Virus genome (UHGV): UHGV-0382128
DNA length: 64,000 nucleotides
Source of the DNA: a virus
Reading direction: 5' to 3' (one strand)
Shown here: positions 2,449-55,300 of the stretch, piece after piece
How the letters are laid out: every line of letters begins with the position of its first letter
How positions within the stretch are numbered: the stretch's first letter is position 1
The notes under the pieces: model-generated
What the model was told of the DNA's origin: nothing
The model's input: only the letters and a program-made list of their open reading frames with translations
Database searches by the model: none
Program-made: the position numbers and the translations under genes

Positions 2449-2762
2449 TTGTTATTCTCCATACGTTTCGTTAAAATGTCTAAATTACGTTGCGCTTGCT
2501 CAGGACTAAAAATAATGTTTTCCTGGCTATACGTTACATGGAAATGTTTTTTGTTAACAATCTCAACCTTAAGGCCACGAACTTCGAATTGCCGTTTAGC
2601 CTCTTCAACCTTTTTTGGTGAGATTCTAAGAAGACCTGGAAATAGTTCGTCTGCAGGAACGTAGTATTTGATTTCCTTAGTTTCGGGAATTAATTCGATC
2701 CTATCTAAACTGACGCTTATGATTTCGTCAATCTTTTTCTTTATATTGTCGTTCACAGTCAT
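2445..2762 (-). CDS. hypothetical protein (105 aa)
   Basis: ORF track; ATGA overlap with thyA start. Confidence 0.5.
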
Positions 2763-3070
2763 CAGATTTTGTCCTTTTCGAGTTCAGTTAAAATTTCAAA
2801 CAGGTCTGCGTTGGACTGCAGTACGATTTCACTGCCTTCTGCTACAACAGTAATTAAAGGCTTCTTACCACGTAGCAAGAACTCCCAACGCATTGTTCTT
2901 ACGTGGCTGTCGAGTAACTGTTTTAATTTGTGGTTAACTTCAACTTCCAATTTGCCCAGTAACTGTGGTGTAATGCTTTCACCTGAGTTTTTGTTATAAA
3001 GTGTACGCACTAAAGAACGTAAAGAATAGCCAATGCACTGCGAAATTGCCCAACCCGAATAGTTTTCCAT
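2762..3070 (-). CDS. hypothetical protein (102 aa)
   Basis: ORF track; 1-nt overlap with downstream gene. Confidence 0.5.
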   Translation of the reverse strand: MENYSGWAISQCIGYSLRSLVRTLYNKNSGESITPQLLGKLEVEVNHKLKQLLDSHVRTMRWEFLLRGKKPLITVVAEGSEIVLQSNADLFEILTELEKDKI

Positions 3071-3071
3071 G

Positions 3072-3617
3072 TTAATCCTTCAAAATGTCTTTAAGTTTTA
3101 GTTTTGTATAGAACGGAGAACTACTTAGTTCTTCTGTCCAACTTATACGTCCGTTCTGTAGAACCCGGTCGAAGATTAGGCCGTTCATCTTTACAATTCT
3201 GGCCAATTGATAAAAGAGTGTCGCGAGATGTAGACGACGCTCCATTTGTGCGCGAGCGGTACAACTTCGTACCGCTTTGATAGCAAGTACCGCTTCTGGC
3301 ATCAACGTAACCGCGATTGACTCAGGATGTTCGTTTTTCCATTTCTTAATGGCTAGTAGTCGGTGTAGTGATTTTTCAAGGGGACGTAAATCCCCGTTAT
3401 TCATCACGTAAACTAGAGCAGCAATATCCCACAAGGCGTTACCCACCGCTTTAGCAACAAACAACCCGTCGTGTGATGTCGTGGATTCACAGACTTTGCC
3501 AATACTTCCATAAACACGTGCAGTCCATGCGTCTGTCTGTTCGCCGGGTTTTATACCCGCGTTATCCAGAAAGTGTTTAAACGCATTAACGTGATCAGTT
3601 AACTGTATTTGTTTCAT
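3072..3617 (-). CDS. hypothetical protein (181 aa)
   Basis: ORF track. Confidence 0.5.
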   Translation of the reverse strand: MKQIQLTDHVNAFKHFLDNAGIKPGEQTDAWTARVYGSIGKVCESTTSHDGLFVAKAVGNALWDIAALVYVMNNGDLRPLEKSLHRLLAIKKWKNEHPESIAVTLMPEAVLAIKAVRSCTARAQMERRLHLATLFYQLARIVKMNGLIFDRVLQNGRISWTEELSSSPFYTKLKLKDILKD

Positions 3618-3631
3618 TTCCGATACCCGAT

Positions 3632-4147
3632 TTAGTCACGAGACTTTATTTTAAGGTACGCAACCGCAGCTCCCACGATTGCAATACCGGCGCCCCAACC
3701 TATCTTTTCTATTACACTCATATCGTCCCATCTTTTCTCTTCGTTACGTCGTTTGGCCTCGTCTGCCCGTTCTCTCCACATCGCTTCGCGTTCCAGACAG
3801 CTGGGATTTATTTCCTCTTCACAACGACGTTTCCGCTCTTCTTCCCTAACCAGTTCTTCTAAATAGAGCCTCGTTTCTTCCACAGCTTGTTCATAGACGT
3901 CTATGCGTTCGGGAAGAATTCTCCTGTGAGCGGCTTTGTTGCGAACGGAAGCAATCATGTGGAGTTTCCGTTCGTATTTTGGTTCGAGAAGATGAGCTAT
4001 GCTTTTGGTCTTCCCATGAAGCCCATGACCGGTACCGCCGAGTTTTTCCACAAGTTCTTCTACAGAAATTGCAAGATCGAGAATATATCCACGCATAATT
4101 GTTTCTCCGCTTAAACGCAGTCTTGGGAGACATAAGTCTGTTCCCAA
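3632..4147 (-). CDS. hypothetical protein with HEPN-like Rx4H motif and C-terminal transmembrane helix
   Basis: motif SVRNKAAHRR (R-x4-H); C-terminal IGWGAGIAIVGAAVAYL hydrophobic helix; true start may be an internal Met. Confidence 0.4.
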   Translation of the reverse strand: MGTDLCLPRLRLSGETIMRGYILDLAISVEELVEKLGGTGHGLHGKTKSIAHLLEPKYERKLHMIASVRNKAAHRRILPERIDVYEQAVEETRLYLEELVREEERKRRCEEEINPSCLEREAMWRERADEAKRRNEEKRWDDMSVIEKIGWGAGIAIVGAAVAYLKIKSRD

Positions 4148-4156
4148 CTGTAAAAA

Positions 4157-4525
4157 TCATTTCAACAAAACAAGATGAATTTGGTATTCGTCATCAGCAG
4201 GAGAAGAATAATCGCCAGCTTCAGGTAACGTTATATCTCCCAGTAGAGCGTGGAAGGGTAATCCACGAGCAGCCTCAACTATTCGTACAAGCGGAAAACC
4301 TGTTCTTTTAATCCAATTGTAATCAACAAACATAACACCACCAGGACTTCCCGAACCTTCCCACACACGAATTTCCACAGTCTTTCCCGAAAAGTTGGCA
4401 AGTACGGTGCGTAGTCCTAATCGCACATAACTGGGAAAGGGTACTTCAATAACTTGTTTTGGTAAAACAAATTCAGGGAATTTAAAACCGAAACCTTTGG
4501 GTGTACTAAAAAACTGAGCTTGCAT
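4157..4525 (-). CDS. hypothetical protein (122 aa)
   Basis: ORF track; AAGGAG SD upstream. Confidence 0.5.
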   Translation of the reverse strand: MQAQFFSTPKGFGFKFPEFVLPKQVIEVPFPSYVRLGLRTVLANFSGKTVEIRVWEGSGSPGGVMFVDYNWIKRTGFPLVRIVEAARGLPFHALLGDITLPEAGDYSSPADDEYQIHLVLLK

Positions 4526-4557
4526 GATAATTCTCCTTTAGGGTAAAAAATGAAAAT

Positions 4558-4581
4558 ACCCTACTCCTGTCTAGGAGTAGG
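4558..4581 (-). terminator. rho-independent terminator (CCCTACTCC-loop-GGAGTAGGG family)
   Basis: hairpin ccctactcc-tgtcta-ggagtaggg with flanking A-run on plus strand; lies after the stop of 4589..5248. Confidence 0.55.
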
Positions 4582-4588
4582 GTAGGTA

Positions 4589-5248
4589 TTACATACGGGT
4601 AACTGAATCCCAGTAATCGCGAAGATATTCTTGATCTTCAGGATCTTTCGGTGTAGCCGGAATGTGGCCGTCAAACTCAAACGGAATTACAGACAGAACA
4701 TCCGCAATCTCGTAACGCTCGACTTCCAGTTCAACTTTCACCCAGTCACCGACGCTGGTACTACTACGCATCTCGGTGAGGAGATCGTTAAAGTCAGCCG
4801 AAACTTCAATTGCAGGGTGTCCGGTGGTGATAGTGAAAATATCAATATCCCAATGCTTAGCGCCTTTATCGGCTAATTCACCCGGTTCTAAGTGGATACG
4901 TTTCACCAGGTGAGCCAAATAACCGTCCTTGTAAAAAGAGAGTGCAGAACTAATACCGATATCCGAATTCTCTTCAACCTTTCCGTCCAGGAATTTACGC
5001 TTAAGCGTTAGCTGTGCTGTACCGTCTTCTTTAATACGGATACGACGACGCCCACCTTCTATCGGCATGAGAATGTCCATGAACATCTTAGTGGACTGTG
5101 CGTGTAGCCAATCCCATCCCGCTTGCGTGGGTTTTACCCAAACGCAATATTCCTTTTCCACTTCACGTTTAATGGATTCGCCTGCAACGCGAATAACTTC
5201 TTCTTCCTGCGCTTTTTCCAATTGCGCAAGGGTATCGAATAATCCCAT
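4589..5248 (-). CDS. hypothetical protein (219 aa)
   Basis: ORF track. Confidence 0.55.
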   Translation of the reverse strand: MGLFDTLAQLEKAQEEEVIRVAGESIKREVEKEYCVWVKPTQAGWDWLHAQSTKMFMDILMPIEGGRRRIRIKEDGTAQLTLKRKFLDGKVEENSDIGISSALSFYKDGYLAHLVKRIHLEPGELADKGAKHWDIDIFTITTGHPAIEVSADFNDLLTEMRSSTSVGDWVKVELEVERYEIADVLSVIPFEFDGHIPATPKDPEDQEYLRDYWDSVTRM

Positions 5249-43730: not shown

Positions 43731-46700
43731 ATGGCTGTCGTCTTAGACCCACACTTCAAAAAACCGGGGAATAAAATAACCGGTGAAGCGGTCGCCGTCA
43801 TTGGTACGAAATACCGAATGTTGGTACCTGCCCACGCCCCTTTTTTCACCACATCCCTGGTGGTCAAGAGCGGCGGCAAAATACTGACCTTAGGCGACGA
43901 TTACGTTATTACACACTCGTACGAGACTGGTATGTTGCGCACAGCCTATCTCATTCACGGGATGATTTGGATTGTTAATGACAAATACAAATCGAACTTT
44001 ACTGTAGATTACCATGCTGTTGGTTGTGGTGAAGCAACCCAAGAGCAGATTACCGCAGAGCGCGAGCTTAATAAAGGTAAATACCCCTCCGCGTGTCAGT
44101 GGGACACCGTTATCGGAGACGTTTACTTTCCACCGGTCGATATCCAGTTCGATTGGGAGAATTGGAAAGGTGAACTGGAGCTAATGCAGGCCATTGCTGG
44201 GGTAGGCGATTCGTTAGGGGAAGTCGTGAGTCGTCTTAACCCAATCGCACGCAATACACTGGATTTGGAATATCGTGCTAATAGCAAGGTTATCACTTCC
44301 GAGCAGTATGCTGCGTACGATAATAAAGGCGGTTTCACCTACAACACAGCTCGCCACCGTTATAGCCTGAGTTATAAAGCGACAACCTTTAACAACTATT
44401 CCCTGTCGGTGAAACACAGAATTCCTGCTATTCTGCCAGACATGACAAAGTTGAATCCGAACGAACAGATCGATTGGATGCTCTGTTATGCCAACGGCGG
44501 TGCAAGTATTCTACGGTTACAGCTAAAACAGCGCAAAATCTCACTGGTCTTAACTGTCGCTATTGGCAGTGGTTCAACAAACTACGATTATACTTTAATC
44601 AACGGTTTAACTGACGATGAGTTAAAAAACGATATCGATTTTAGTGTAACCCGACAACCCGGAAACGGCGTTTACGTAATCGTAGTAAAAACAAATAAAC
44701 AGACCATGGATTATACGTTCAACGTAGATACGCCGCCTGATGAGTTCTCGGCAGGGTATTCGAAAACGGATGTAGCCAAATGGTTGAAGTCTAAAACGAA
44801 CATTAACCTGAACTGGTATGCGGCTGAAAACGATTATGTTCAAATTCGTTCTTTACCCGGCGCGCCGGAGCCTGACGTCGATAACGATGTTTACCAGTTA
44901 ATAGTTAAGTATCATCAGTTGGTTGAGCAGCTGTATCGTAATGCGCCTGCGCACGAACACATCACACGTAAGGACAACCCACACACAGATACGTGGGGTC
45001 CGATCCGTGCGTTAGAGTTGAACGGTATTGCGTCGGATGCAGCATTAGCTTACGGAAAAACGAAGCCGCAGTTAACGGATTATGTTAATGCTAAGTATCC
45101 AACACAAGCGACGCTGACAGCACAAAAGAAACTATTGCGCACGTCAGCTACGAAAACGGCTAACGGAACTATTGGAACGCTGCCCGGTTTTACTTCGTTC
45201 ACGACGGAAGTTGACCCGGTGTCAATGTCGAAATACGTGAGTCCTCGTTTTAGCGAAAGCTACGTTAGTAATGGTCACAGGTATCACGGTGCGCTTCGTT
45301 ACACAGGAACGAAGAGTGGATTCGCCACTTCTTTTAATGCGGTACCTGCTAACCTGCAAGATATTGACTTTATTGTTACCGGACGTAAAACAGCGTCTGG
45401 TAATGAAGCTGTCGGTACGGTTAGCCTACGTTTCTATCAGAAACCTGGTACTAACTCTGGAAAATTTATCCAGCTTACAGGTGAAATTTCTGCGGGTAAA
45501 GTCGGCGTTAAGTTGGAACTGAACGGTTTTTCGAATCCCACACCGGAAGTTCAGTATCTTTCCCAAGCTCCTAATCCAGCAATACCGGATGGGGATTTTA
45601 CGCTGCGTTTTCAACTGAAACGCACAGGGAACGTGTTTGATGTCGTTATTACCATAAACGGCAAGACATACAGTGCACGTGTTAACTTCACTAACATGGA
45701 CGCTGCACTAGAAGCATTGGAGAATAGCCACCACTTTAAATCATTGATCAGTAATGTTGCTGACAACGTCACTATTAGCTCGGGGAATAAAGGTAACACG
45801 GTTACCATTAAGAAAGCGCCCGACGTCGTTGACGGGACCCGTTTAGGTGCCCAGTTTGTCGTTGACCCGAAATCCATTAAGTTTATTGGACAAGGTTCAA
45901 CCGAGGTTAATGTGGGGAATAACCCGGTAACGTTTCAAGCAGGTATTAACCAGCTTATATTGTATCCTGATGATCGTGGATTACAGTGGCGTGGTAAGAA
46001 ACTCTTAGACCCCACTACCGTGGCTCCGTATCTGCCAGGCAATACCGCGGGCGGTACGGGATTATTCTACGGTACATCTACAACCACGGTAGAGCTTACC
46101 GGTAGCGGGATAAAAGCATCGCCGTTCGTAGCGACTTTTATTCTCCCTACCGCGACAGATACAACAGCCCTGGCAGCTTGGCAGTTGACTGATGAGTTTG
46201 GTACCGCTGAAAACCTTGCAGCAACGCCAGCACTGATTGAAAAACTCGATGCGGAGTTCACCGGTAAATTAGTTGCGGTTAAATCGTACATTAACGATAT
46301 GCAACTTACCAGCTCGGTCACTATCGACAAAATTACCTTTGGTTTAGGTAACGTTGCGAATACACCCGATGTCAATTTACCGATTTCTACAGCACAACGT
46401 GCGGAGTTAGATAAATACTCGCCTAAAGTTCACCAACACCCGTTTACCGCTTTTGGTACTGGGAACGCAACCACAGCGAAACGTGGTCTGATTAAATTTG
46501 GTCTGGATGTGGATGATGCGACTTTAGCACTCGATGGGAGTGTGGTAATGGCGCAGACCTCCCAGATTGAAAAATTGGAAAATGCTGTCGGTGGCGTTGA
46601 CTCGGGTGCTCGCGTTGACATTATTCGTTTCGGCAAGTCTGGTGACGACTTAATTAACGTTACGGTTAAAGACAAAATTCTGGCTATGCTCCCCGCTTCA

Positions 46701-48053
46701 ACGTACTTTGTTGGTGGTGAGACGTATGACGTACCGTTAATGTCGGTTAACGTCACTGAACGTTTCCCGAATCCGAAAACGTTGATCTACGCAGGAATTT
46801 TTGTTGATATTGTTGACAACAAAGCGAAGTATGTTATCCACGACAGCTACAATCAGGCTGAAACGGATACCATGACGCGCGTGGGAAGACTCGTTGTCAA
46901 TGAGCTTTCCGAAGTGGACGTAGTGGAATTGCGTAACGTGACACGATTAGGCGAATTCCACGAGCTGAAAGACCACATCGCTAATGACAACGCACACATT
47001 CAACGTTCTGCTTCGCGTGCAGTATTGGGGTTAAGTGATTTAACAGTAGGTGCACCTTGCTGGGCTTCTGGACTCCAGGCAGTAGTGCGTGGTGAAGCAG
47101 ATTGGCGTTATGTTGTTCGTGGACAGTATAAAGCCTTAGACGGGGTGAAATACGACCAGATCGCATCAAAGTGGATTTTCGATGCGAAAGGGGTAAGTGA
47201 CAACGTTCACGGGTTTATTCACAACTTATTCCCGACTTTCAAAAACGCAGGAATGCGGGTAAGTTGGGAAACAGAAAGCAACGCAAAAACCGGAACAGTG
47301 TTAGAAACTGTTTTAGGTTGTTGGAAGAACAACGACGGCGAGTTTATGCGGTTGTCATTACTTATCACTCGCGGTTATCGTTTAACTGACAGTAACGGTG
47401 AATATTGTTACGCAGGGTTCGGTTTGAACTTCGGTAGCGGGAAATCGGTAGTGGTAGGTTTCACACCAACGAAGCGTGTTACGCCTGCACCGTGGAGTTC
47501 ATTACGACCTGACGTAACGTTTACCCACACCCGTGGTGCAAACAACGCAATAACGTTTAATGCATCGCTGACTTTAGCTGGCACTGTGTATACTATCGTG
47601 GTGTTTTTATCCGCGACAGATAAATACGTAAGCTGTACGGCGGCAGGGGGAACTACGCAGAAAATCCCATTAGCCGACCGTTTAACCGGGTTCAATATCG
47701 AACCTATCGTTAATGATCCGTATACCCCTATTTACTACGGTTTAGGGGGACTTTATGAGGATGAGGTTCGTGCCAACATCCGCTCTACAGCAGACAGCGC
47801 AACTGCGAACAAAGTCTACGGTACGTTGTTGGACTATGTTAGCAACTATTCCTCATTAAATCGAGTACGCGTCATGGAATTGTCCGGTGTCAGCTCAGAC
47901 CCCGAAACGCTTAATGCGTTAGTGGCAACTGAATTTAATAACAACCTGGCAGATTACGCTGCGTTACCGATACCTCCTTATCTTAACAAGGAGCGCGTAA
48001 TGTCGTTTATCGACACCGACAATAAAGTGCAGGCGGTAATCATTCGCGATTAA
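43731..48053 (+). CDS. tail fibre protein 1 (1440 aa)
   Basis: very large Gly/Thr/Ser/Asn-rich protein; ATTAKRGLIKFG-type fibre repeat; N-terminal region paralogous to the next three genes. Confidence 0.6.
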   Translation: MAVVLDPHFKKPGNKITGEAVAVIGTKYRMLVPAHAPFFTTSLVVKSGGKILTLGDDYVITHSYETGMLRTAYLIHGMIWIVNDKYKSNFTVDYHAVGCGEATQEQITAERELNKGKYPSACQWDTVIGDVYFPPVDIQFDWENWKGELELMQAIAGVGDSLGEVVSRLNPIARNTLDLEYRANSKVITSEQYAAYDNKGGFTYNTARHRYSLSYKATTFNNYSLSVKHRIPAILPDMTKLNPNEQIDWMLCYANGGASILRLQLKQRKISLVLTVAIGSGSTNYDYTLINGLTDDELKNDIDFSVTRQPGNGVYVIVVKTNKQTMDYTFNVDTPPDEFSAGYSKTDVAKWLKSKTNINLNWYAAENDYVQIRSLPGAPEPDVDNDVYQLIVKYHQLVEQLYRNAPAHEHITRKDNPHTDTWGPIRALELNGIASDAALAYGKTKPQLTDYVNAKYPTQATLTAQKKLLRTSATKTANGTIGTLPGFTSFTTEVDPVSMSKYVSPRFSESYVSNGHRYHGALRYTGTKSGFATSFNAVPANLQDIDFIVTGRKTASGNEAVGTVSLRFYQKPGTNSGKFIQLTGEISAGKVGVKLELNGFSNPTPEVQYLSQAPNPAIPDGDFTLRFQLKRTGNVFDVVITINGKTYSARVNFTNMDAALEALENSHHFKSLISNVADNVTISSGNKGNTVTIKKAPDVVDGTRLGAQFVVDPKSIKFIGQGSTEVNVGNNPVTFQAGINQLILYPDDRGLQWRGKKLLDPTTVAPYLPGNTAGGTGLFYGTSTTTVELTGSGIKASPFVATFILPTATDTTALAAWQLTDEFGTAENLAATPALIEKLDAEFTGKLVAVKSYINDMQLTSSVTIDKITFGLGNVANTPDVNLPISTAQRAELDKYSPKVHQHPFTAFGTGNATTAKRGLIKFGLDVDDATLALDGSVVMAQTSQIEKLENAVGGVDSGARVDIIRFGKSGDDLINVTVKDKILAMLPASTYFVGGETYDVPLMSVNVTERFPNPKTLIYAGIFVDIVDNKAKYVIHDSYNQAETDTMTRVGRLVVNELSEVDVVELRNVTRLGEFHELKDHIANDNAHIQRSASRAVLGLSDLTVGAPCWASGLQAVVRGEADWRYVVRGQYKALDGVKYDQIASKWIFDAKGVSDNVHGFIHNLFPTFKNAGMRVSWETESNAKTGTVLETVLGCWKNNDGEFMRLSLLITRGYRLTDSNGEYCYAGFGLNFGSGKSVVVGFTPTKRVTPAPWSSLRPDVTFTHTRGANNAITFNASLTLAGTVYTIVVFLSATDKYVSCTAAGGTTQKIPLADRLTGFNIEPIVNDPYTPIYYGLGGLYEDEVRANIRSTADSATANKVYGTLLDYVSNYSSLNRVRVMELSGVSSDPETLNALVATEFNNNLADYAALPIPPYLNKERVMSFIDTDNKVQAVIIRD

Positions 48054-48063
48054 GGAGAATTTT

Positions 48064-51000
48064 TTGATGAAAGCGTATCCTTACGATCCTCGGGGGACGA
48101 AAACCGAGAATCACTTCTTAGAGGAGCGTATCATCGGGTCAGAAAACAACAACGATCGGGTGGTGATTTTAGACCATCGCCCGTTCTTTGAAGATTTAGT
48201 CGTCAGACAACCAGGTTCAACCACCCCACTGAGTCGTGGGGTGGACTACGAACTGCAATATCAGCTGACGGAACTGGATGACTCGGTAGCAGCCAACGTG
48301 TATTGTGGGGTACACCTTATCAACCCTTCCATCAAAGGCATCGTAACCTTTGAAGGACAAATGCTCGGCGGTACGTTCTACGACCCGTTTGTTGATATTC
48401 TCGATGAGCTGGTGAAATATTTGAATAACCCAGTCAGCGCTGACTGGCTGTTATTAGACGGTAGACCGTCGTTATATCCAGCGACGCCTGCGGCAACGTC
48501 TTGGGCGGATTTGCTAAACAAAAAATATTTAGCGTCGGCAGTCCACGATGTTGAATTGAAAACCGATGACGCTAACCAGTTAATTAAAGATAAATTAGCC
48601 GAAGTTAAAGCGTTAGTCGCCGCGCTGGGTAAAGAAATCGAGGCATTTAACTACCCGGCACACATCGCGGAAACCAACCCGCACCAAACTACTTCTGCAC
48701 AGATTAGCGCACATCCTGTTAACTTGAAAACACCCGACACCTTTATGGCGTACGGGTTAAAGTTGAAAGCACTGACGGATGAACTGAAAGCGTTTCGTTT
48801 ACCACAGTCAGTTATCGACACGTATATCTCTCACTGGATTTCTTCGGAAGTACGGGGTGTGTTTAACTGCACGGTGTCAGGAAACCGTGCACAGTTCCGC
48901 TCAAAAAACGGTGAGTCAGAAATCATTTTTGCGAATGATGGCTTTACGTTAAAATCCAACGGTTCTGTAGTGTTAGCGGTAGGGCATCTGGAAGGAACGG
49001 GTGCAGGACGTTACATTAACTGGCGTGCTGGTAAAAACACGTTACGCATCGAGTCAACGGGCGATGCTTTAGGGATGAACAAACTTACCCTAAACGGTAA
49101 CCCGTTACTGACCACCACAGCATTGATGGAATACCAACAGGACCCGGATGCTGGCGGGAGCGGTGGCGGTGACCCTGACGACTCAAAGGTGTACATCGAA
49201 GGCCGTAATGGGATTAGCTTCACCGGTAAAGGCTCTCGGACCGATCCTATCGTGGGTACTATCGAACCGACGAAAGCGACAACCACCGAAAAAGGTGTTG
49301 TTAAGCTTAAAACTGGTAAAGGTACAGAAATCGTTGGGGTTGCAGCAACTCCGGCTTCGTTAGCGCCATATGCGACCGACCTATCGGGGTATGTGGCTAA
49401 AACGACCATGATTAACGGTAAGCCGATGAATGACGGCTCCAGGACAATCACGAAAGCTGACCTGGGGTTAGGGCAAGCGGATAATACCGCAGATCTTGAC
49501 AAACCGTTGTCAACCAAGTTAACTGAGGCGGTTAGCGGTCTAGCAGATGTGGGCCATCATCACGATTGGTCGGAGTTAGGTATTTATAAAGCCTCTCAAT
49601 CTGTTTACGGTATCGGTCGTTATGCAACTAACCAGAACGGTTTGGTTGAAAACCGTGCAGTGGTACCGAACATCCTAAAAGAGCTTTCGGCACGTTTAAG
49701 TGTGGTCGCTGCGGCAATTGCAAATGCGAAAGAAGGAACAGTCACGGATTTCGCTGCTGTAAAAGGCGCAGACTGGCGATTTAATAGCCAGGGTACGGCA
49801 ATCTCCGTTCAGGATTTGAAATATTTCTATTTGCTGGACGGCACGAAAGGTGACAGCACCGTTACCGGTGCGATTGACCTGCAAACCACTCCGATGTTTA
49901 ACTGGTTCTCACCGAACAACCAACTTGAGCTGACTTGGCCTACGGGTAAGGTGAGTAAAGGTACCGGGATTAGTTGGGATGGAATTGTTGATCCCCCAAC
50001 AATGGGGTTTCAGTCAGTTCCGGTAGGTAAAAGCGCCACCCAGATGGGCGTTCAGTCCGTTGTATCGGTACTGGCTAAAACGCGCGTCAAAGCTCGTCAG
50101 AAAAGGCTGTTTGTTTATGCCGCTGGCGGTGGGACAATAACCGTTTATGTAAATGGTGTTGTAGCCGCTACTGGTGCGTCGCCATTGTTAATGAACTATG
50201 GAACGTCTCCAGATGTTGAAAACTACACAATTGCTGTTAAAGCAGAGTGTAGTGACACGGCTAAATCTGCAGCGGTACAGTTCGAAGTTTACGATGGTGA
50301 CTACCCCGTTTATTTCAGTGGTCCTGAAACGCGTGTAGATCTTCTCCAGGAGTTTGTCACAACGCATGTAGGTATTCGTCATTATTTGTACGTTAACATG
50401 CTCACAGGCTCTCTGTATTCGCGTGCTGAACCAGTTCAAGGATTTGAGGTCGATCCAGAACGCGGATATATCGGTTATGTTGATATCGTTCCTGGTCAGT
50501 CTTACGCGAATAAAACCGTGGGATTTGAAACCACGTTTGATTTCGGGAAAAGTGCGGAAGTTAGCGAGCATAATAGTATTCGTAAGGCACACGGTCTCAA
50601 CGCTGCGGACTGGTCACTGACGGATAACCCACGGTTGCCGTTATTAAACCGTGCTATTGCCGAACCAAGAGCGTGTATCTTTAGGAAACCGTTAGCAACC
50701 GCTACAGGGGATGTTTTCCATCTTGTCAGTCGTGGCCTTTATACCTACGCACACAACCAAAACGTGAAGTCGAGTCTTCAATACGTTGTGATACCTGAAG
50801 GTGCTACGCCGTATTGTTGGTTTACACCATTTAACCCGAAAGAAAACAACGCACCGACATTCGAAGGCTCGTTTGCGTTCGATGTTGACGATGTTGGTGG
50901 AACGCAAGCCCTTGCTGCTGCGCCGGATTTGGTTCTATGCACGTCAACGCAAGGTAGCAGCGTTAAACGTCGCTATCTACGCATTGACCTAACTACCAAA

Positions 51001-52248
51001 GCCTGTAGGCTGGGGATTGGTTCCCGTTCAGATTCTGCCGTTACAGATATTCCGTTAGTGATGGAGGAGTCTGGGGAAACGGCGGTGGTCGCAACGTTTA
51101 AGGATGTGTTGTTCAACGGCGAGGAAACCAACCCCGCGGCACTCGACTTGATAGGTTGGGGTGCCAGCCGAGATAAAATTTCTGCAAACCATGCACCTCG
51201 TGGCATGATTCGCTATCGTTACAACGTAAACACTCGGGTATTACGTTTAGCACTGTCGTTCTCACAGTTCGGAACGACAACAGTTAAACATCGACAGCTG
51301 GAGATTCAATTCCCGTTCGATTTAGTGGATTATTTCACTGGCGACGGTGTGGGATTGTCGTTTAAAGAACTGTCTGCGAAATGCCGTGTAACGATTAGTC
51401 ATGCACTGATTGATCCGGCTACGAGTAACGTCGACATTGATAAGTACCATTACTTACGTTCGTTGTTCGAATCGTATCTGGATTCGTCCGTTGGGTATTT
51501 GGCTGATACCAAAGACGTTGATTTTAGTCAGTCTGTGATTGACCCTGCGACTTACGAGGTTAGTCAAAAATACCGCGTTACAGAAAGCATCGCGCTGCCA
51601 ACCGGCCAGGGAAGTGTTGCTGTTTCCCATGACGGCCAGTTGCCTGCGCAGTTCTTTGACCGTAAGCTGTCTCGTGGTGCCTTGATGGCCAAGAAAGGTG
51701 AACTCAACACTTCCTGGAATAATGAGTGGAGCACGACTAAAGCTGCTGCGAGTCGTTATCGCCATAAACTCATTCTACGCTTTGCACAAGGTGCTGATAA
51801 ACAGCAGTATCGCGTTGCAAAAGTGGCCGGGACGGTGAAGTCTAACTGGCCGGGTAAAGTGATTATCGGTGATGCCGGGAAGGACCCGTATGTATCGGCT
51901 ATTGATAGCGTATCTTTTGCGCTTTCGACCGCCTCTGATACAGGTAAAGCGATTACTCTTACGCCAAAGGACTTACGTGTAGGTCAGGACATTTATATTG
52001 TCTTAGAACCACCCGGCAATAATCCAGAAGGTTATGAACTTAACTTCACTTGTTCGTTAGATGTCACTGACGAGAAAAGTGTCCGTCAAGATCAACTCAA
52101 TGCACAGAGTTTCGAACTCCGTAGCGGCGAAAGTCAGTTCTTAATGGAGAAACGCAACCCGTACCACATCACGAGTAAAGCGTGGAAGTGGATTCTGGCT
52201 GTACTGAAACGAGAACTTAACGGGAAGCAGTTAGGGGATCGTACTTAG
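48064..52248 (+). CDS. tail fibre protein 2 (1394 aa)
   Basis: TTTEKGVVKLKTGKGTEIVGVAATPASL resembles the T4 gp12/gp34-type fibre repeat; HHHD metal-site-like motif. Confidence 0.65.
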   Translation: MMKAYPYDPRGTKTENHFLEERIIGSENNNDRVVILDHRPFFEDLVVRQPGSTTPLSRGVDYELQYQLTELDDSVAANVYCGVHLINPSIKGIVTFEGQMLGGTFYDPFVDILDELVKYLNNPVSADWLLLDGRPSLYPATPAATSWADLLNKKYLASAVHDVELKTDDANQLIKDKLAEVKALVAALGKEIEAFNYPAHIAETNPHQTTSAQISAHPVNLKTPDTFMAYGLKLKALTDELKAFRLPQSVIDTYISHWISSEVRGVFNCTVSGNRAQFRSKNGESEIIFANDGFTLKSNGSVVLAVGHLEGTGAGRYINWRAGKNTLRIESTGDALGMNKLTLNGNPLLTTTALMEYQQDPDAGGSGGGDPDDSKVYIEGRNGISFTGKGSRTDPIVGTIEPTKATTTEKGVVKLKTGKGTEIVGVAATPASLAPYATDLSGYVAKTTMINGKPMNDGSRTITKADLGLGQADNTADLDKPLSTKLTEAVSGLADVGHHHDWSELGIYKASQSVYGIGRYATNQNGLVENRAVVPNILKELSARLSVVAAAIANAKEGTVTDFAAVKGADWRFNSQGTAISVQDLKYFYLLDGTKGDSTVTGAIDLQTTPMFNWFSPNNQLELTWPTGKVSKGTGISWDGIVDPPTMGFQSVPVGKSATQMGVQSVVSVLAKTRVKARQKRLFVYAAGGGTITVYVNGVVAATGASPLLMNYGTSPDVENYTIAVKAECSDTAKSAAVQFEVYDGDYPVYFSGPETRVDLLQEFVTTHVGIRHYLYVNMLTGSLYSRAEPVQGFEVDPERGYIGYVDIVPGQSYANKTVGFETTFDFGKSAEVSEHNSIRKAHGLNAADWSLTDNPRLPLLNRAIAEPRACIFRKPLATATGDVFHLVSRGLYTYAHNQNVKSSLQYVVIPEGATPYCWFTPFNPKENNAPTFEGSFAFDVDDVGGTQALAAAPDLVLCTSTQGSSVKRRYLRIDLTTKACRLGIGSRSDSAVTDIPLVMEESGETAVVATFKDVLFNGEETNPAALDLIGWGASRDKISANHAPRGMIRYRYNVNTRVLRLALSFSQFGTTTVKHRQLEIQFPFDLVDYFTGDGVGLSFKELSAKCRVTISHALIDPATSNVDIDKYHYLRSLFESYLDSSVGYLADTKDVDFSQSVIDPATYEVSQKYRVTESIALPTGQGSVAVSHDGQLPAQFFDRKLSRGALMAKKGELNTSWNNEWSTTKAAASRYRHKLILRFAQGADKQQYRVAKVAGTVKSNWPGKVIIGDAGKDPYVSAIDSVSFALSTASDTGKAITLTPKDLRVGQDIYIVLEPPGNNPEGYELNFTCSLDVTDEKSVRQDQLNAQSFELRSGESQFLMEKRNPYHITSKAWKWILAVLKRELNGKQLGDRT

Positions 52249-52286
52249 GACAGACTGCCTGCGGGCAGTTGTGTGTCCGTAGGTAA

Positions 52287-52309
52287 CCCCTCCCTGTAAT
52301 GGGGAGGGG
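52287..52309 (+). terminator. rho-independent terminator inside the tail-fibre operon
   Basis: hairpin cccctccc-tgtaat-ggggagggg followed by tatccattttattt. Confidence 0.55.
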
Positions 52310-52342
52310 TATCCATTTTATTTAAAAGTAGGAGTCTTTACG

Positions 52343-55300
52343 ATGCCGAGAGAAGACGCGGCGCAGTTTAACGGTACGCTAAGCACAACGACGTACCCTA
52401 ACCGATTTAACGTGGTCATTCCGCCTGAAGGACCTTTTTATCGTATCGGATTAAAACTCACAGTAGCCGACGATACCGCGCCTAACGGACGTCGTACTCT
52501 GATTGAGGGGTTGGACTACTATTTAGGCTATTACTTTAAAGAACTCGCAGAAGCTGAACAAGATCAGATTTATGGCGGGTTTATGTTGCTTACTGCAACA
52601 GAAATCGAATATGAGATTTTAGGGGTAGCACGTCAATACCGTGTACCGCAATCTGAAATCGGTAAGTTCTTAGTTCGTACTGACCTGAAAGACCCACGTA
52701 ACGTGGACTGGTCGGAGTTAATGGCGTACGCGCCGGTTATTCAACCAATCGACCCCCCTGCTAACTTAGAAGAAGCTATTCTGAGGGACGAGGTCGTTAA
52801 AGCGTTGAACGATATCCGCAAGAAAATCATTCAGCGTTCAACAGAGTTAGATGCGGCCTTCACCGAAGTCACTAACCTGATTTACGAGAACGGTAAAAAG
52901 ATTTTCGATGAAGAACTATACCAACACCACCTTAATCCTAACGCTCACCAGTATACGACCAATGACGTTGGGGCCCTTCCGGTTTTAGGACGTGCTGTTG
53001 ACGCTACAAAAGCGTTTGGGTTGACAATTGACCAACTGGCTACGCTGATGGGTTCGGCGGGCATTGAGCAATCAGACGTTGAACAGCTAATGGGTGAAGC
53101 CCTCGGTACCGTTTACGGTCGTTGGGGCACCACGAACGGTAACGAACTAACGTTTAAAACACCGGGTGGACACATCATCAGCATCCGTGGTGATAAGTGG
53201 TTAATTACCTCCCCGCAACCGTTAGTGATTAAAGCAGACCAAGACAACAACGAATCCGGTTTGGCGGTTGAGTTTAGTGCGGGACTGAATACGCTTTGGG
53301 TACACTCTGGGTCAGAACAGGATGTATTAGCACCGGTCTATAACTCTGTGTATCTCGTTACACCAGAAATGGTGAACATGTACCTGACGTCTGTAACGTT
53401 ACTTGAAGCGAATGCCTATTTCAAACCGTCAGACACCGTAAAACCGTACGGTACAGCGAAGCAGTCTAACCCACTAACGTTGAACGCGAATATTCCCACA
53501 GCAACCGAGTCGGTTTATGGGGTGTTTTCGATTACGAATATCGCAACCTCTGTAGCGCTAGGCACTGCTATTTCCCAAAAGGCTGTGACCGAGTTAAAAA
53601 ACCGGTTGGACTTGTACGTTGACGACGACTACACGGTTAACGGTAAAGGGTTTGTTAAGACAGGCGACAACATGGTGTTAACCTTAACGAAGGCCGATTT
53701 CGGTATCGATAAGATGAATAACACCGCACCCATCGCTAAACCGGTAACAAAAGCATTAGCGAACGTGCTGAAAAATAAAAGTTTGAAGGTTCACACGCAC
53801 ACTACCGCTGATTTGGATAATGTCCCGATTGGTAGCGCAACAGTGGACGGTATCTTACAGCTGTGGGATGCGATTGATACCACGAATGATAAAGCCGTCA
53901 CATCACGCCAAGGGTGGCTGTTCGCAAAAGAGATTAAGAAGGTCTCTGATAAACTGAATACCCTCTTGCCCGCATGGACAACGGCCGGGAGCAAATATAC
54001 CAACAATTCGATATTGCCGATCTTGTCGATGGGTAATTACGAAGGTTATGGTAAAAACATGGATGCGCTCCAGATGGTTATAGGGGTACAACAAGGTAAG
54101 CTTTATGCTTTAATTAGCTCTAAATCCGCCCTTCCGGGAACTGAGGGTATTTATTACGCTGTTGCTGGGTTAAAAAACGACAAAAGTCTCGGTGAAATTT
54201 ACAAAACAACTTTCCGTTATAAGCCGAAAGGGTTAGAGACGAATTATCCGGGGGTGGAACTAAAAGAAATTACCGTTACTGGTACCGAAGCATTTATAGC
54301 GAAGGGCAGCGACGATAATTATTATTTAGTTAAACTGAACGGTTCAATGGATTACACCAAACATACCGATGTCAGGTTGGTAACTTTCTCAGAATTTGTT
54401 TCAGAAACAACATGGGAATTTGTGCCGAATATGTTCATGGATCGTGTGGTCATAGCCGATAACGGCGTCTATGTTTTGCGTACGATGCTAATGGCCGATC
54501 TGAAAAACAATACTCTGGTGGACTACATTAAGGATACCCCACAACCCATGTTCCGTGTTGGCTTATTGCGGCTTAATAAAACCGATCGGTTTGAACAGGT
54601 TGATTTAAGGTCTACACGAAAAATCGGTAAGTGTGCCGATTTGGTTGAACCTGGCGCGTTCGATGTAGATAATCCGAATACGAAGCGTCTTGCCTACTTC
54701 ACTGCGGAAGGCAAAGCGTTGTGGACAGTGAACTTACAATTAACTAGAGGGTCGTCAAGATGGATAACGCCCGTTGTTAAGGACGGTCACTTGTTAACCG
54801 TCGGCGTGTCTGGTGTTTGTCTTGGTTTTTCTTCAACGAAAGGTACCACATTCGGGCCATGGAATGGTGCTTATCGTCTTGACCTATTAACCGGGGAGGT
54901 TGGGTTAGAGACAACTAACGTCTTCCCAATTAAAATCGATACTACAGGTTGTTACTTAAAAGACGGAACAAAAATAGAGCTGAAATGGAAATGGGCTACT
55001 CGAAGTTCTGGCTATATGGCCGACAATAGAATCTGTGTCGGTGATATGGTTTATTCTTGCTGCTGTTCGACAGAAAAACAACTTGCACCATCTCTCCATT
55101 ACCAGAAACTCCCAGAAGGAGTTAGTTATCTGGACTATGTTAAGTTGAGTGTGGGGTATGAGGGGCAATCTACGTTTGAAAATCGGATAAACCCTGTGGT
55201 GGGTTCGGTGTGGAAACCGTCTATGACCTTCCCATTGTTCTTCCCAGGAACAAACAAAGTATGGCTTAAACATCAAAAATCGGCTTATTTCATTGAAGCC

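What the first reader, a model, noticed from the sequence alone, without database searches (positions are those of the whole stretch)
3632..4147. HEPN-motif protein with C-terminal membrane anchor
The product contains SVRNKAAHRR, matching the Rx4-6H HEPN RNase motif, and ends in a hydrophobic helix (IGWGAGIAIVGAAVAYL). HEPN domains are typical of abortive-infection and toxin RNases; a phage-encoded, membrane-anchored one could be a host-shutoff RNase, an inter-phage competition factor or an anti-defence decoy.
Basis: partly seen in the sequence, partly recalled or inferred. Interest (0 to 1): 0.45.

Follow-up and report, generated by a model that had tools for sequence, protein, structure and literature searches.

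The report
Membrane-tethered mini-HEPN RNase in jumbo phage
A small jumbo-phage gene encodes a predicted RNA-cutting (HEPN) domain held at the cell membrane by a C-terminal anchor; it belongs to a widespread, so far unnamed protein family and is most likely a weapon in conflicts between mobile genetic elements.

Summary
The gene lies on the minus strand, but the true start is the ATG at 4096 (CDS 3632..4096, 154 aa), not the TTG at 4147.

- **Motif.** The loose Rx4-6H motif alone is uninformative: it appears in 84% of shuffles of this Arg-rich protein.
- **Family.** A profile of the domain finds 334 remote relatives. RNxxxH is present in 144 of the 147 listed. About 70% carry transmembrane segments after the domain, most often one C-terminal anchor.
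- **Annotation.** No library tested names the family. Pfam DUF4145 matches are below threshold.
- **Context.** Relatives sit in prophages, a conjugative element and restriction/defence neighbourhoods. In the phage clade, a Seoul-like "persistent" nucleus-forming jumbo phage, the gene occupies a fast-diverging two-gene slot.

Best reading: a cytoplasm-facing, membrane-tethered HEPN RNase used in inter-element conflict. RNase activity, dimerisation, topology and biological role are inferred, not shown.

The parts
3632..4096 (-). CDS of the 154-aa mini-HEPN plus TM protein (ATG 4096..4094, stop 3634..3632)
   Evidence: ORF list and sequence. 57 homologues were found, and all 22 aligned start at this Met. 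N-domain dN/dS is 0.28.
4105..4108 (-). Shine-Dalgarno GGAG, 8 nt upstream of the ATG
   Evidence: Read directly from the sequence.
3842..4096 (-). Residues 1-85: four-helix HEPN-like domain (helices 2-18, 25-32, 39-58, 65-84)
3926..3943 (-). R52-N53-K54-A55-A56-H57, the putative catalytic Rx4H motif at the C-terminal end of helix 3
   Evidence: R52, N53 and H57 are invariant in alignments A1, A3 and A4. RNxxxH is present in 144 of 147 remote representatives. Its position matches the published HEPN description (PMC3710099).
4058..4060 (-). Codon of E13, the invariant acidic residue of the family (candidate second active-site residue)
   Evidence: Invariant in A3 and A4. A conserved upstream acidic residue is a described HEPN feature. 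Its spatial proximity to R52/H57 was not checked.
3722..3841 (-). Residues 86-125: highly charged (about 60% D/E/K/R) helical stalk, variable in length and sequence among phage variants
   Evidence: Composition. Predicted helices 65-94 and 98-125 at falling pLDDT. Indels make the protein 136-191 aa long across the clade.
3647..3703 (-). Residues 132-150: predicted C-terminal transmembrane anchor (IGWGAGIAIVGAAVAYLKI), rich in small-xxx-small motifs and followed by a 4-residue tail, KSRD
   Evidence: The Kyte-Doolittle maximum lies here. G137, I138, A139, I140 and A144 are invariant in the phage clade. A C-terminal TM is the commonest architecture in the family.
4157..4525 (-). Upstream 122-aa ORFan in the same transcription direction; co-variable neighbour and possible partner
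   Evidence: No Pfam or PHROG match. Homologues occur only in this phage clade. It diverges as fast as the HEPN gene while the flanks are 95-99% identical.
4557..4584 (-). Terminator-like hairpin (12-bp stem plus T run) upstream of the 122-aa gene; possible boundary of the transcription unit
   Evidence: Consensus scan only.

Best explanation
The gene encodes a one-pass, tail-anchored inner-membrane protein. Its 85-residue N-terminal domain is a minimal HEPN domain, closest to Pfam DUF4145, that faces the cytoplasm. A charged helical stalk of variable length links it to a single C-terminal transmembrane helix.

By analogy with characterised HEPN enzymes, two copies would pair so that R52, N53 and H57 (probably with E13) form a metal-independent RNase site. 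That site would cut RNA at the inner face of the membrane.

The gene sits in a fast-changing accessory slot of a 'persistent' nucleus-forming jumbo phage. Its relatives sit in prophage moron positions, a conjugative element and restriction/defence neighbourhoods. Its most likely job is therefore inter-element conflict: superinfection exclusion or abortive-type defence of the infected cell against competing phages or plasmids.

Shown here:
- fold similarity to HEPN domains;
- motif position and its invariance;
- the family's architecture;
- the genomic contexts.

Inferred, not shown:
- dimerisation;
- RNase activity and its target;
- N-in topology;
- the trigger;
- the biological role.
For: 2. 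**Motif.** RNKAAH lies at the end of helix 3, before the loop to helix 4, with a polar residue after the Arg. This is as described for HEPN (PMC3710099).
3. **Family.** The domain profile finds 334 relatives at E <= 1e-3 among 1.84 billion representatives. E13, R52, N53 and H57 are invariant at 20-40% identity. RNxxxH is present in 144 of 147.
4. **Link to HEPN families.** Relatives match DUF4145 in 13 of 61 (best E 5.5e-7; P0059 at the gathering score), plus HEPN_Apea, RiboL-PSP, Swt1 and DUF3644. The phage clade itself matches DUF4145 in 11 of 23 and Abi_2 in 6 of 23, weakly.
5. **Membrane.** 106 of 147 relatives have at least one hydrophobic segment. Of the 144 with the motif, 51 have a single C-terminal anchor with a median 3-residue tail, 24 a single TM plus a C-terminal extension, and 28 several TMs.
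6. **Topology.** C-terminal extensions include domains normally found outside the cytoplasm: Excalibur and PG_binding_1. This implies the HEPN domain is inside.
7. **Conflict context.** Relatives lie in a Pseudomonas prophage, a conjugative element, a phage-like contig, between terminase and integrase, next to type I HsdR plus Fic, and next to a NERD-helicase.
8. **Variable slot.** SPN3US carries two unrelated genes at this position. Within the clade, the flanks are 95-99% identical with dN/dS 0.06-0.08. The HEPN gene and its 122-aa neighbour are 58-96% identical with dN/dS 0.23-0.28 and higher dS.
9. **Lifestyle.** The clade persists in bacterial isolates (bioRxiv 10.1101/2024.12.31.630880). 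In that lifestyle, protecting the host cell pays.
Against: - The window protein is below Pfam's threshold for DUF4145 (14.5 bits against 23.1).
- It has no PHROG, PADLOC or NCBIfam match.
- No sequence-level PDB hit is significant: the best is HepS at E = 1.
- Foldseek E-values are not significant, the best being 0.26.
- The TM helix of this particular protein is only marginally hydrophobic and is modelled with low confidence.
- TM calls for the family come from a crude hydropathy rule.
- No dimer model could be made.
- No conserved partner, trigger or antitoxin was found across contexts.
- Many Planctomycetota and Acinetobacter relatives sit among housekeeping genes, so the family is not exclusively a mobile-element or defence family.
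- An unregulated RNase would also harm the phage. How self-damage is avoided is unknown.
Confidence: 0.55

Rival explanations
1. The protein is a membrane-tethered HEPN RNase as above, but it serves the phage's own programme rather than conflict with other elements. It would cause host shut-off, or turnover of membrane-proximal host mRNAs or of the phage's own early transcripts.
For: The gene lies in a same-strand block with nucleotide-metabolism genes such as thymidylate synthase, with no lysogeny-type regulation nearby. The phage shelters its DNA in a chimallin nucleus, so a cytoplasmic RNase would mainly meet host RNA.
Against: The gene is not part of the conserved Seoulvirus gene set: SPN3US has unrelated genes in the slot. 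It diverges 4-5 times faster than its flanks. Its closest non-clade relatives are prophage morons and defence-island genes. This is the pattern of accessory conflict genes, not core takeover functions.
Confidence: 0.2
2. The HEPN-like domain is catalytically inactive. It acts as an RNA- or nucleotide-binding or protein-binding module at the membrane, for example as a regulator, scaffold or decoy for a host HEPN-based defence.
For: Several HEPN families are non-catalytic binders (PMC3710099). The domain is unusually small at 85 aa. No activity data exist.
Against: Inactive HEPN families have typically lost the Rx4-6H motif. Here R, N, H and an upstream Glu are invariant across relatives with only 20-40% identity. 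That degree of conservation is hard to explain without catalysis.
Confidence: 0.12
3. The transmembrane helix is the effector: a holin-like or small-toxin-like membrane permeabiliser, rich in GxxxG/A motifs. The HEPN-like head only senses or regulates it.
For: The anchor is rich in small-xxx-small motifs (G133xxxG137, G135xxxA139xxxA143, G142xxxA146) that favour helix packing, and G137, I138, A139, I140 and A144 are invariant in the clade. Many defence effectors are small TM proteins. The known two-gene HEPN-TM system combines both parts.
Against: Across the family the TM sequence is not conserved beyond hydrophobicity, while the head's catalytic residues are invariant. The TM number varies from 1 to 6, and 41 of the 147 listed representatives had no hydrophobic segment by the hydropathy rule.
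Confidence: 0.06
4. There is no HEPN domain: a chance Rx4H in an Arg-rich helical protein with a hydrophobic tail.
For: Rx4-6H occurs in 84% of shuffles. All library matches for the window protein itself are sub-threshold.
Confidence: 0.03

Closest known systems
Pfam DUF4145 (PF13643), a HEPN-clan family, including the experimentally studied defence proteins RAZR (zinc finger + DUF4145) and Ishtar (N-terminal DUF4145/DUF3644)
   Same: It is the best-matching profile for the phage protein and for its relatives. Both are small helical domains with an RNxxxH-type motif. DUF4145 is reported in R-M and defence contexts, in dsDNA viruses, and fused to TM segments (PMC3710099). In Ishtar the HEPN domain is N-terminal, as here.
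   Different: The window protein scores 14.5 bits against the 23.1 gathering score. None of the 120 listed hits of the alignment search carries a precomputed DUF4145 annotation. There is no zinc-finger or other sensor domain: the partner module here is a stalk plus a TM helix. The family has its own signature, E..L...GAxGxGLHxK..S, before the RNK..HE motif.
'Bacterial membrane-associated HEPN domains' predicted by Anantharaman et al. 2013 (PMC3710099), especially the group with an N-terminal HEPN, two TM helices and a C-terminal Zn ribbon (Planctomyces)
   Same: Both have an N-terminal cytoplasmic HEPN followed by TM segment(s). Planctomycetota dominate the genomic relatives. One relative has a double zinc ribbon. 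The proposed logic is the same: RNA processing at the inner face of the membrane, possibly stimulus-dependent.
   Different: That description is a computational note on multi-domain bacterial proteins. The commonest form found here is a 110-190-aa protein with a single C-terminal anchor. Its presence in phages, prophages and a conjugative element was not described there.
HEPN-TM anti-phage system of phage-inducible chromosomal islands (Fillol-Salom et al., Cell 2022, as cited in PMC11087260, PMC12724294 and PMC12948488)
   Same: It combines a HEPN module with a membrane module on a mobile element and has demonstrated anti-phage activity.
   Different: As cited in PMC12724294, that system is two adjacent genes: a HEPN protein next to a second, membrane protein. 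Here both modules are in one 154-aa polypeptide. Sequence relatedness could not be tested because the paper and its sequences are not held. PADLOC-DB gave no HEPN-related hit, though whether that library models this system was not checked.
Prophage-encoded single-protein HEPN RNases HepS (Gifsy-1) and Tha (S. aureus phages)
   Different: HepS and Tha are described as proteins of about 210 and 301 residues that are activated by phage tail proteins. The sources read here mention no membrane anchor. No trigger is known for the present protein.
Type VII toxin HepT (HEPN-MNT toxin-antitoxin systems)
   Different: No MNT nucleotidyltransferase antitoxin is adjacent: the 122-aa neighbour has no family match. 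HepT has no TM segment. Sequence identity is 10-17%.
Eukaryotic Ire1 (KEN domain) and C6orf70, membrane-anchored HEPN RNases
   Same: Both are one-pass membrane proteins with a cytoplasmic HEPN RNase. Some bacterial relatives add an extracytoplasmic domain (Excalibur, PG-binding). One Planctomycete lineage has RtcB ligase two genes away.
   Different: There is no kinase domain and no evidence of splicing-type cleavage. The resemblance is architectural only. The RtcB linkage comes from one closely related lineage.

Membership tests
HEPN superfamily | Four-helix up-and-down bundle made of two alpha-hairpins | tested here: met
HEPN superfamily | Rx4-6H motif at the end of helix 3 or start of the loop to helix 4, with a polar residue (N/D/H) after the Arg | tested here: met
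   R52-N53-K-A-A-H57 lies at the C-terminal end of helix 39-58. It is invariant in the family. The criterion is taken from PMC3710099.
HEPN superfamily | Second conserved acidic residue upstream, near the active site (often Ex3[KR]) | tested here: inconclusive
   E13 is invariant, but it lies in the first helix of the model and not in an Ex3[KR] context.
HEPN superfamily | Dimerisation that forms a composite active site; metal-independent RNase activity | not testable with these tools
Activity needs biochemistry.
Pfam DUF4145 (PF13643) | Score at or above the curated gathering threshold (23.1 bits) | tested here: not met
   The window protein scores 14.5 bits, E = 0.039. Eleven of 23 clade members match weakly. 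Among remote relatives, 13 of 61 match at E below 0.01, with a best E of 5.5e-7, and P0059 is exactly at the threshold. This makes it a sister or outlier family rather than a member by Pfam's rule.
HEPN-TM two-gene defence system (PICI) | Separate HEPN protein and TM protein encoded by adjacent genes | tested here: not met
   Here both modules are in one protein. The upstream 122-aa and downstream 181-aa neighbours have no HEPN match.
HEPN-TM two-gene defence system (PICI) | Sequence homology to the S. saprophyticus SS413 proteins | not tested
   The sequences WP_129531117.1 and WP_129531118.1 and the paper are not held. PADLOC-DB gave no HEPN-related hit.
HEPN-MNT (type VII) toxin-antitoxin | Adjacent minimal nucleotidyltransferase antitoxin | tested here: not met
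   No nucleotidyltransferase family matches any of the six neighbouring products.
Tail-anchored / one-pass N-in membrane protein | Single hydrophobic helix near the C-terminus, no signal peptide, cytoplasmic N-domain | tested here: inconclusive
   One hydropathy peak lies at 132-150 (score 1.66), followed by four residues. The feature is conserved across the family. C-terminal Excalibur and PG-binding fusions in relatives imply N-in. No dedicated topology predictor was available and no experiment was done. pLDDT is low at the tail.

The most novel reading that the evidence does not exclude
A nucleus-forming, persistently infecting jumbo phage carries its own immune effector: a membrane-tethered HEPN RNase. 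It would create a peripheral zone where transcripts of newly entering phages or plasmids (or membrane-proximal host mRNAs) are destroyed, while the phage's own messages near its central nucleus are spared. This would help stabilise the carrier state.

More broadly, the family would be a bacterial counterpart of Ire1-type one-pass transmembrane RNases. An outside domain (Excalibur, PG-binding, Zn ribbon) or a membrane perturbation would switch on the cytoplasmic HEPN head. In one Planctomycete lineage, RtcB would act as a repair partner.
Probability: 0.12. Interest if true: 0.8.

Novelty: new variant of a known kind. Interest (0 to 1): 0.45.

Why it matters
HEPN RNases are central effectors of bacterial immunity, as in Cas13, Csm6, HepT, HepS, Tha and RAZR. 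Membrane-bound versions, however, have only been predicted, in 2013, and never studied.

This work defines a large family that public annotation misses. It has 334 representatives at 50% clustering, spread from Planctomycetota to Pseudomonas and Acinetobacter, and is labelled 'hypothetical' or named only for a C-terminal Excalibur domain.

The family's commonest form is one of the smallest conceivable effector designs: an 85-residue nuclease head on a membrane anchor.

It also occurs in a variable slot of Seoul-like jumbo phages that persist in clinical Salmonella, Shigella and E. coli isolates. That gives a short, testable candidate for how such phages exclude competitors or hold the host in a carrier state.

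It also raises a clear question: how does a phage with cytoplasmic mRNAs tolerate its own RNase?

Tried and rejected
- **Nucleotide and protein search of the phage collection.** Megablast of 3000-5000 and tblastn of the protein found no match. The clade is absent from that collection at this locus.
- **PHROGs, PADLOC and NCBIfam.** No family matches the protein. The weak PADLOC hits (ZorA, Ppl, PbeC) fall on the charged stalk or TM and were ignored.
- **PDB sequence searches with two profiles.** Nothing is significant. The TRIO hit (E = 0.26) and the PI3K hits (E above 6) are coiled-coil noise.
- **Foldseek against PDB and BFVD.** No hit reaches E <= 0.001. The afdb50 library was unavailable.
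- **SPN3US gp227 as a homologue.** It occupies the syntenic position but shows no similarity. The 122-aa neighbour is likewise unrelated to gp226.
- **The 122-aa neighbour as a family-wide partner.** This was rejected. It is unrelated to the neighbours of remote relatives and is found only in this clade.
- **A search for any universal neighbour across 78 loci.** None was found. The MoxR/RtcB neighbours come from genomes whose RtcB is 90-93% identical, so they count as one event.
- **The Fillol-Salom 2022 paper.** It could not be read.
- **Lysis-gene reading (holin or spanin).** Considered because of the protein's size and single TM. Rejected because the conserved part is the cytoplasmic head and because relatives occur in non-phage chromosomal contexts.
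Full report
**1. The observation**

The flagged interval holds a minus-strand ORF.
- SVRNKAAHRR is residues 50-59.
- IGWGAGIAIVGAAVAYL is residues 132-148.

These numbers count from the ATG at 4096. The mechanical ORF starts at a TTG at 4147, but the ATG at 4096 is the real start. A GGAG lies 8 nt upstream at 4105-4108. All 22 homologues aligned begin MR at that codon (57 were found). The gene is therefore 3632..4096 (-), 154 aa.

R-x4-6-H appears in 84% of composition-preserving shuffles of this protein, which has 18 Arg and 5 His. The stricter RNxxxH appears in 1.2%.

The hydrophobic tail gives the only hydropathy peak: residues 132-150, score 1.66 against a cut-off of 1.6. It is followed by just four residues, KSRD.

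**2. The window**

The window is part of a jumbo phage distantly related to Salmonella phage SPN3US (Seoulvirus).
- Large virion proteins are about 52% identical to SPN3US-group phages.
- PHROG matches include virion proteins, a UvsX-like recombinase, SbcC, a ribonuclease and others.
- Gene order around the finding matches SPN3US gp218-gp229.

There is no nucleotide-level match in the phage collection. The locus is, however, about 90% identical to circular 'plasmids' of about 222 kb in complete genomes of E. coli 98232 and Enterobacter ludwigii. Protein homologues sit on contigs of about 221-226 kb from Salmonella, Shigella and E. coli assemblies.

This fits the 'Seoul-like persistent jumbo phages' reported in bacterial isolate assemblies. 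All of those encode the phage-nucleus protein chimallin (bioRxiv 10.1101/2024.12.31.630880). I did not look for chimallin in this window.

**3. Is the N-terminal domain HEPN?**

*Profile evidence on the protein itself is weak but consistent.*
- DUF4145 matches at E = 0.039 and 14.5 bits, below the 23.1-bit threshold, over residues 11-65.
- Across 23 clade members, DUF4145 matches 11 and Abi_2 matches 6. Both are HEPN families.

*Structure evidence is stronger.*
- An AlphaFold2 model of residues 1-85 has pLDDT 95.3 and four helices: 2-18, 25-32, 39-58 and 65-84.
- Lower in the list come 8xdj, MtlR, HI0074, ST0689, Csm6 and the prophage defence RNase HepS.
- Foldseek ranks HepT, 1wwp and 2hsb first too, but without significant E-values; the best is 0.26.

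*Motif position.* R52-N53-x3-H57 lies at the C-terminal end of helix 3, just before the loop to helix 4, with Asn after the Arg. This is the position and form given for the HEPN active site by Anantharaman et al. 2013 (PMC3710099).

**4. The family**

A profile of the 85-residue domain was searched against 1.84 billion cluster representatives. It returned 334 proteins at E <= 1e-3, and hits outside the phage clade start at E = 2e-16.

Conservation in alignments of 61 and 41 relatives with 20-40% identity to the phage protein:
- E13, R52, N53 and H57 are invariant in both, together with a glycine of the G-rich loop (G23 in the 41-sequence alignment).
- G20, G25, H27, K29, S32 and A49 are nearly invariant.
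- The resulting signature is E..L...GAxGxGLHxK..S ... IA.(I/V)RNK..HE.

RNxxxH is present in 144 of the 147 listed representatives, usually at position 53-56. Invariance of exactly the catalytic-type residues at this divergence argues for an active enzyme.

Relatives match DUF4145 in 13 of 61 (best E 5.5e-7; P0059 is at the gathering score). They also match HEPN_Apea, RiboL-PSP, Swt1, DUF3644, Cthe2314 and HepT-like models, mostly below threshold.

None of the 120 listed hits of an alignment search has a precomputed DUF4145 annotation, and NCBIfam has no model. The family is thus a distinct, unnamed HEPN family whose nearest profile is DUF4145.

The best PDB sequence match of the family profile is HepS (E = 1, not significant). 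It aligns IRNKavHe to HepS IRNKYAHK. The aligned His is presumably the catalytic H105, because a deposited mutant is named H105A. The two-residue numbering offset is my inference.

**5. The membrane part**

Of the 147 representatives, 106 have at least one hydrophobic segment. Among the 144 with the motif:

| Architecture | Number |
|---|---|
| Single C-terminal anchor (median tail 3 residues) | 51 |
| Single TM plus a C-terminal extension | 24 |
| Several TMs | 28 |
| N-terminal TM only | 2 |
| None by this crude rule | 39 |

In genome loci the commonest product is 114-140 aa with one C-terminal TM.

C-terminal extensions include domains that are normally extracytoplasmic:
- An Excalibur domain occurs in a 225-aa Acinetobacter protein seen on 896 contigs. 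That protein is named only 'excalibur calcium-binding domain-containing protein'.
- A PG_binding_1 domain occurs in one relative.

These fusions place the HEPN head in the cytoplasm.

In the phage clade, the head and the anchor are conserved. G137, I138, A139, I140 and A144 are invariant. The anchor contains G133xxxG137, G135xxxA139xxxA143 and G142xxxA146, which are helix-packing motifs. The charged stalk between head and anchor varies from near absence to about 55 extra residues.

Closer relatives share a juxtamembrane W-x-(D/E)-x-x-G-W-E-K motif.

Weak points: hydrophobicity for this particular protein is marginal, pLDDT at the tail is 34-47, and no dedicated topology predictor was available.

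**6. Genomic context**

*In the phage.* The gene follows a 122-aa ORFan (4157..4525) after a 60-nt gap. It precedes, by 14 nt, a 181-aa gene (3072..3617). All are on the minus strand, and thymidylate synthase lies further downstream. A terminator-like hairpin at 4557-4584 precedes the 122-aa gene.

SPN3US has the same flanking genes (gp225; gp228; ThyA gp229). It carries two unrelated genes, gp226 and gp227, in the slot.

Within the clade:

| Gene(s) | Amino-acid identity | dN/dS |
|---|---|---|
| Flanking genes | 95-99% | 0.06-0.08 |
| 122-aa gene | 58-94% | 0.23 |
| HEPN gene | 60-96% | 0.28 (N-domain) |

The 181-aa gene falls to 40% identity in one lineage (L001). Against that same lineage, dS of the cassette is two to three times that of the flanks, which suggests allelic replacement by recombination. 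This is the signature of an accessory, fast-evolving cassette. The 122-aa protein has no relatives outside the clade.

*Outside the clade.* Relatives lie in the following places:
- a Pseudomonas prophage, opposite in orientation to the late genes;
- a conjugative element, among TraI, TraG and DtrJ genes;
- a phage-like contig;
- IMG/VR viral contigs;
- between terminase and integrase, directly after a type I HsdR plus Fic on a Vibrio plasmid, and after a NERD-UvrD helicase plus MZB protein in Xanthomonas.

Many Planctomycetota and Acinetobacter members, however, have ordinary chromosomal neighbours. No neighbour is shared across lineages.

**7. Mechanism proposed**

*Shown:* a small HEPN-like head with intact catalytic-type residues; a stalk; a C-terminal hydrophobic anchor; a family-wide link to membranes; an accessory, fast-evolving position in a persistent jumbo phage; frequent residence on mobile elements and in defence neighbourhoods.

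*Inferred:*
- The head faces the cytoplasm.
- Two heads pair to form a composite RNase site, as in characterised HEPN enzymes (established knowledge).
- The enzyme cuts RNA at the inner face of the membrane.
- The purpose is conflict with other mobile elements, that is, superinfection exclusion or abortive-type defence.

Tethering could either restrict the enzyme to the cell periphery or control its activation through lateral clustering of anchors. I could test neither idea. I put about 0.55 on this overall reading. By component:

| Component | Confidence |
|---|---|
| HEPN fold | about 0.9 |
| Membrane anchoring with N-in topology | about 0.75 |
| Catalytic activity | about 0.65 |
| Conflict role | about 0.45 |

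**8. Rivals**
- *A phage housekeeping or host shut-off RNase.* This is possible, but the gene is not conserved in SPN3US and evolves like an accessory gene.
- *An inactive binding or decoy module.* This is disfavoured by the invariant R, N, H and E.
- *The TM helix as effector.* This is disfavoured because TM sequences are not conserved across the family while the head is.
- *A chance motif.* This is disfavoured by sections 3 and 4.

**9. Comparison with what is known**

Anantharaman et al. 2013 listed DUF4145 fusions to TM segments. They also described three groups of 'membrane-associated HEPN domains', including an N-terminal HEPN followed by two TMs and a Zn ribbon in Planctomyces. They proposed RNA processing at the inner membrane face. 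The present family very likely includes or adjoins that third group.

Experimentally studied relatives in function:
- RAZR and Ishtar (DUF4145-type heads);
- HepS and Tha (prophage HEPN RNases);
- HepT toxins;
- the two-gene HEPN-TM system of PICIs.

None of these is a single small tail-anchored protein, and the sources I could read describe none from a jumbo phage. A comparative review of jumbo-phage conflict systems does not mention HEPN at all.

I therefore rate this a new variant of a known kind. The superfamily is known and a membrane association had been predicted. The family itself is unnamed and uncharacterised, and the phage setting is new.

**10. Verdict**

It is moderately interesting rather than surprising: interest 0.45. 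The value lies in a compact, testable candidate effector and in the delineation of a large unannotated family.

Noticed in passing
whole window; L096 (NZ_CP173450.1), H20 (NZ_CP134650.1): The window belongs to a jumbo phage of about 222-226 kb with no nucleotide match in the phage collection. It is deposited as a circular 'plasmid' in complete genomes of E. coli 98232 and Enterobacter ludwigii, and it is present in many Salmonella, Shigella and E. coli assemblies. This matches the 'Seoul-like persistent jumbo phages' of bioRxiv 10.1101/2024.12.31.630880.
   Followed up: partly
window 3072-4525 (-); L001, L008-L011, L096: A three-gene stretch (122-aa ORFan, HEPN-TM, 181-aa gene) diverges far more between otherwise near-identical phage genomes than its flanks do: 40-96% against 95-99% amino-acid identity, with dS 2-3 times higher towards L001. 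SPN3US has unrelated genes gp226 and gp227 in the first two positions. This is a recombining variable slot.
   Followed up: partly
window 2762-3617 (-): The single SPN3US gene gp228 (289 aa; phrog_10269, 299 positions) corresponds here to two separate ORFs. The 181-aa ORF matches profile positions 31-163 and the 102-aa ORF matches positions 201-298. The two are separated by one base. The split is kept in all clade genomes examined.
   Followed up: no
L035:4747-9069 and L036, L037, L038, L042, L057, L067, L072: In Thermoguttaceae (Planctomycetota) MAGs the mini-HEPN-TM gene sits in a same-strand array: MoxR AAA+ ATPase, HEPN-TM, an unknown 369-aa protein, and RtcB RNA ligase (Pfam RtcB E = 4e-99). 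RtcB seals the kind of RNA ends that HEPN RNases make. All loci are from one close lineage (RtcB 90-93% identical), so this counts as a single observation.
   Followed up: partly
P0282; L094:5980-6657: A 225-aa Acinetobacter protein seen on 896 contigs is annotated only as 'excalibur calcium-binding domain-containing protein'. It is in fact N-terminal mini-HEPN (RNKVVH), one TM, then a C-terminal Excalibur domain. This is a receptor-like one-pass architecture. Its neighbours in A. parvus are housekeeping genes.
   Followed up: partly
P0059, P0060, P0083, P0099, P0146, P0148; L037, L057, L067, L072: Some relatives carry two tandem mini-HEPN domains (two RNxxxH motifs about 90-130 residues apart) before the TM segment(s). 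This would give an intramolecular 'dimer'.
   Followed up: no
window 43731-57529 (+): Three consecutive giant genes (1440, 1394 and 1728 aa) are paralogues of one another. They cross-match phrog_7557, phrog_8078, phrog_7449 and phrog_2163 (virion structural proteins), as in SPN3US-like phages.
   Followed up: no
window 4557-4584 (-): A strong terminator-like hairpin (12-bp stem, 6 G-C pairs, T-rich tail) lies between the conserved 219-aa gene and the variable cassette. It may mark the start of a separate transcription unit.
   Followed up: no
BFVD hits A0A482IIS2 and A0A223W0X1 (Agrobacterium phage Atu_ph08, 158 aa): These are the only viral predicted structures with a high Foldseek probability (0.99 and 0.90) to the domain model, though their E-values are not significant (0.12 and 1.0). 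They may be further phage mini-HEPN proteins.
   Followed up: no
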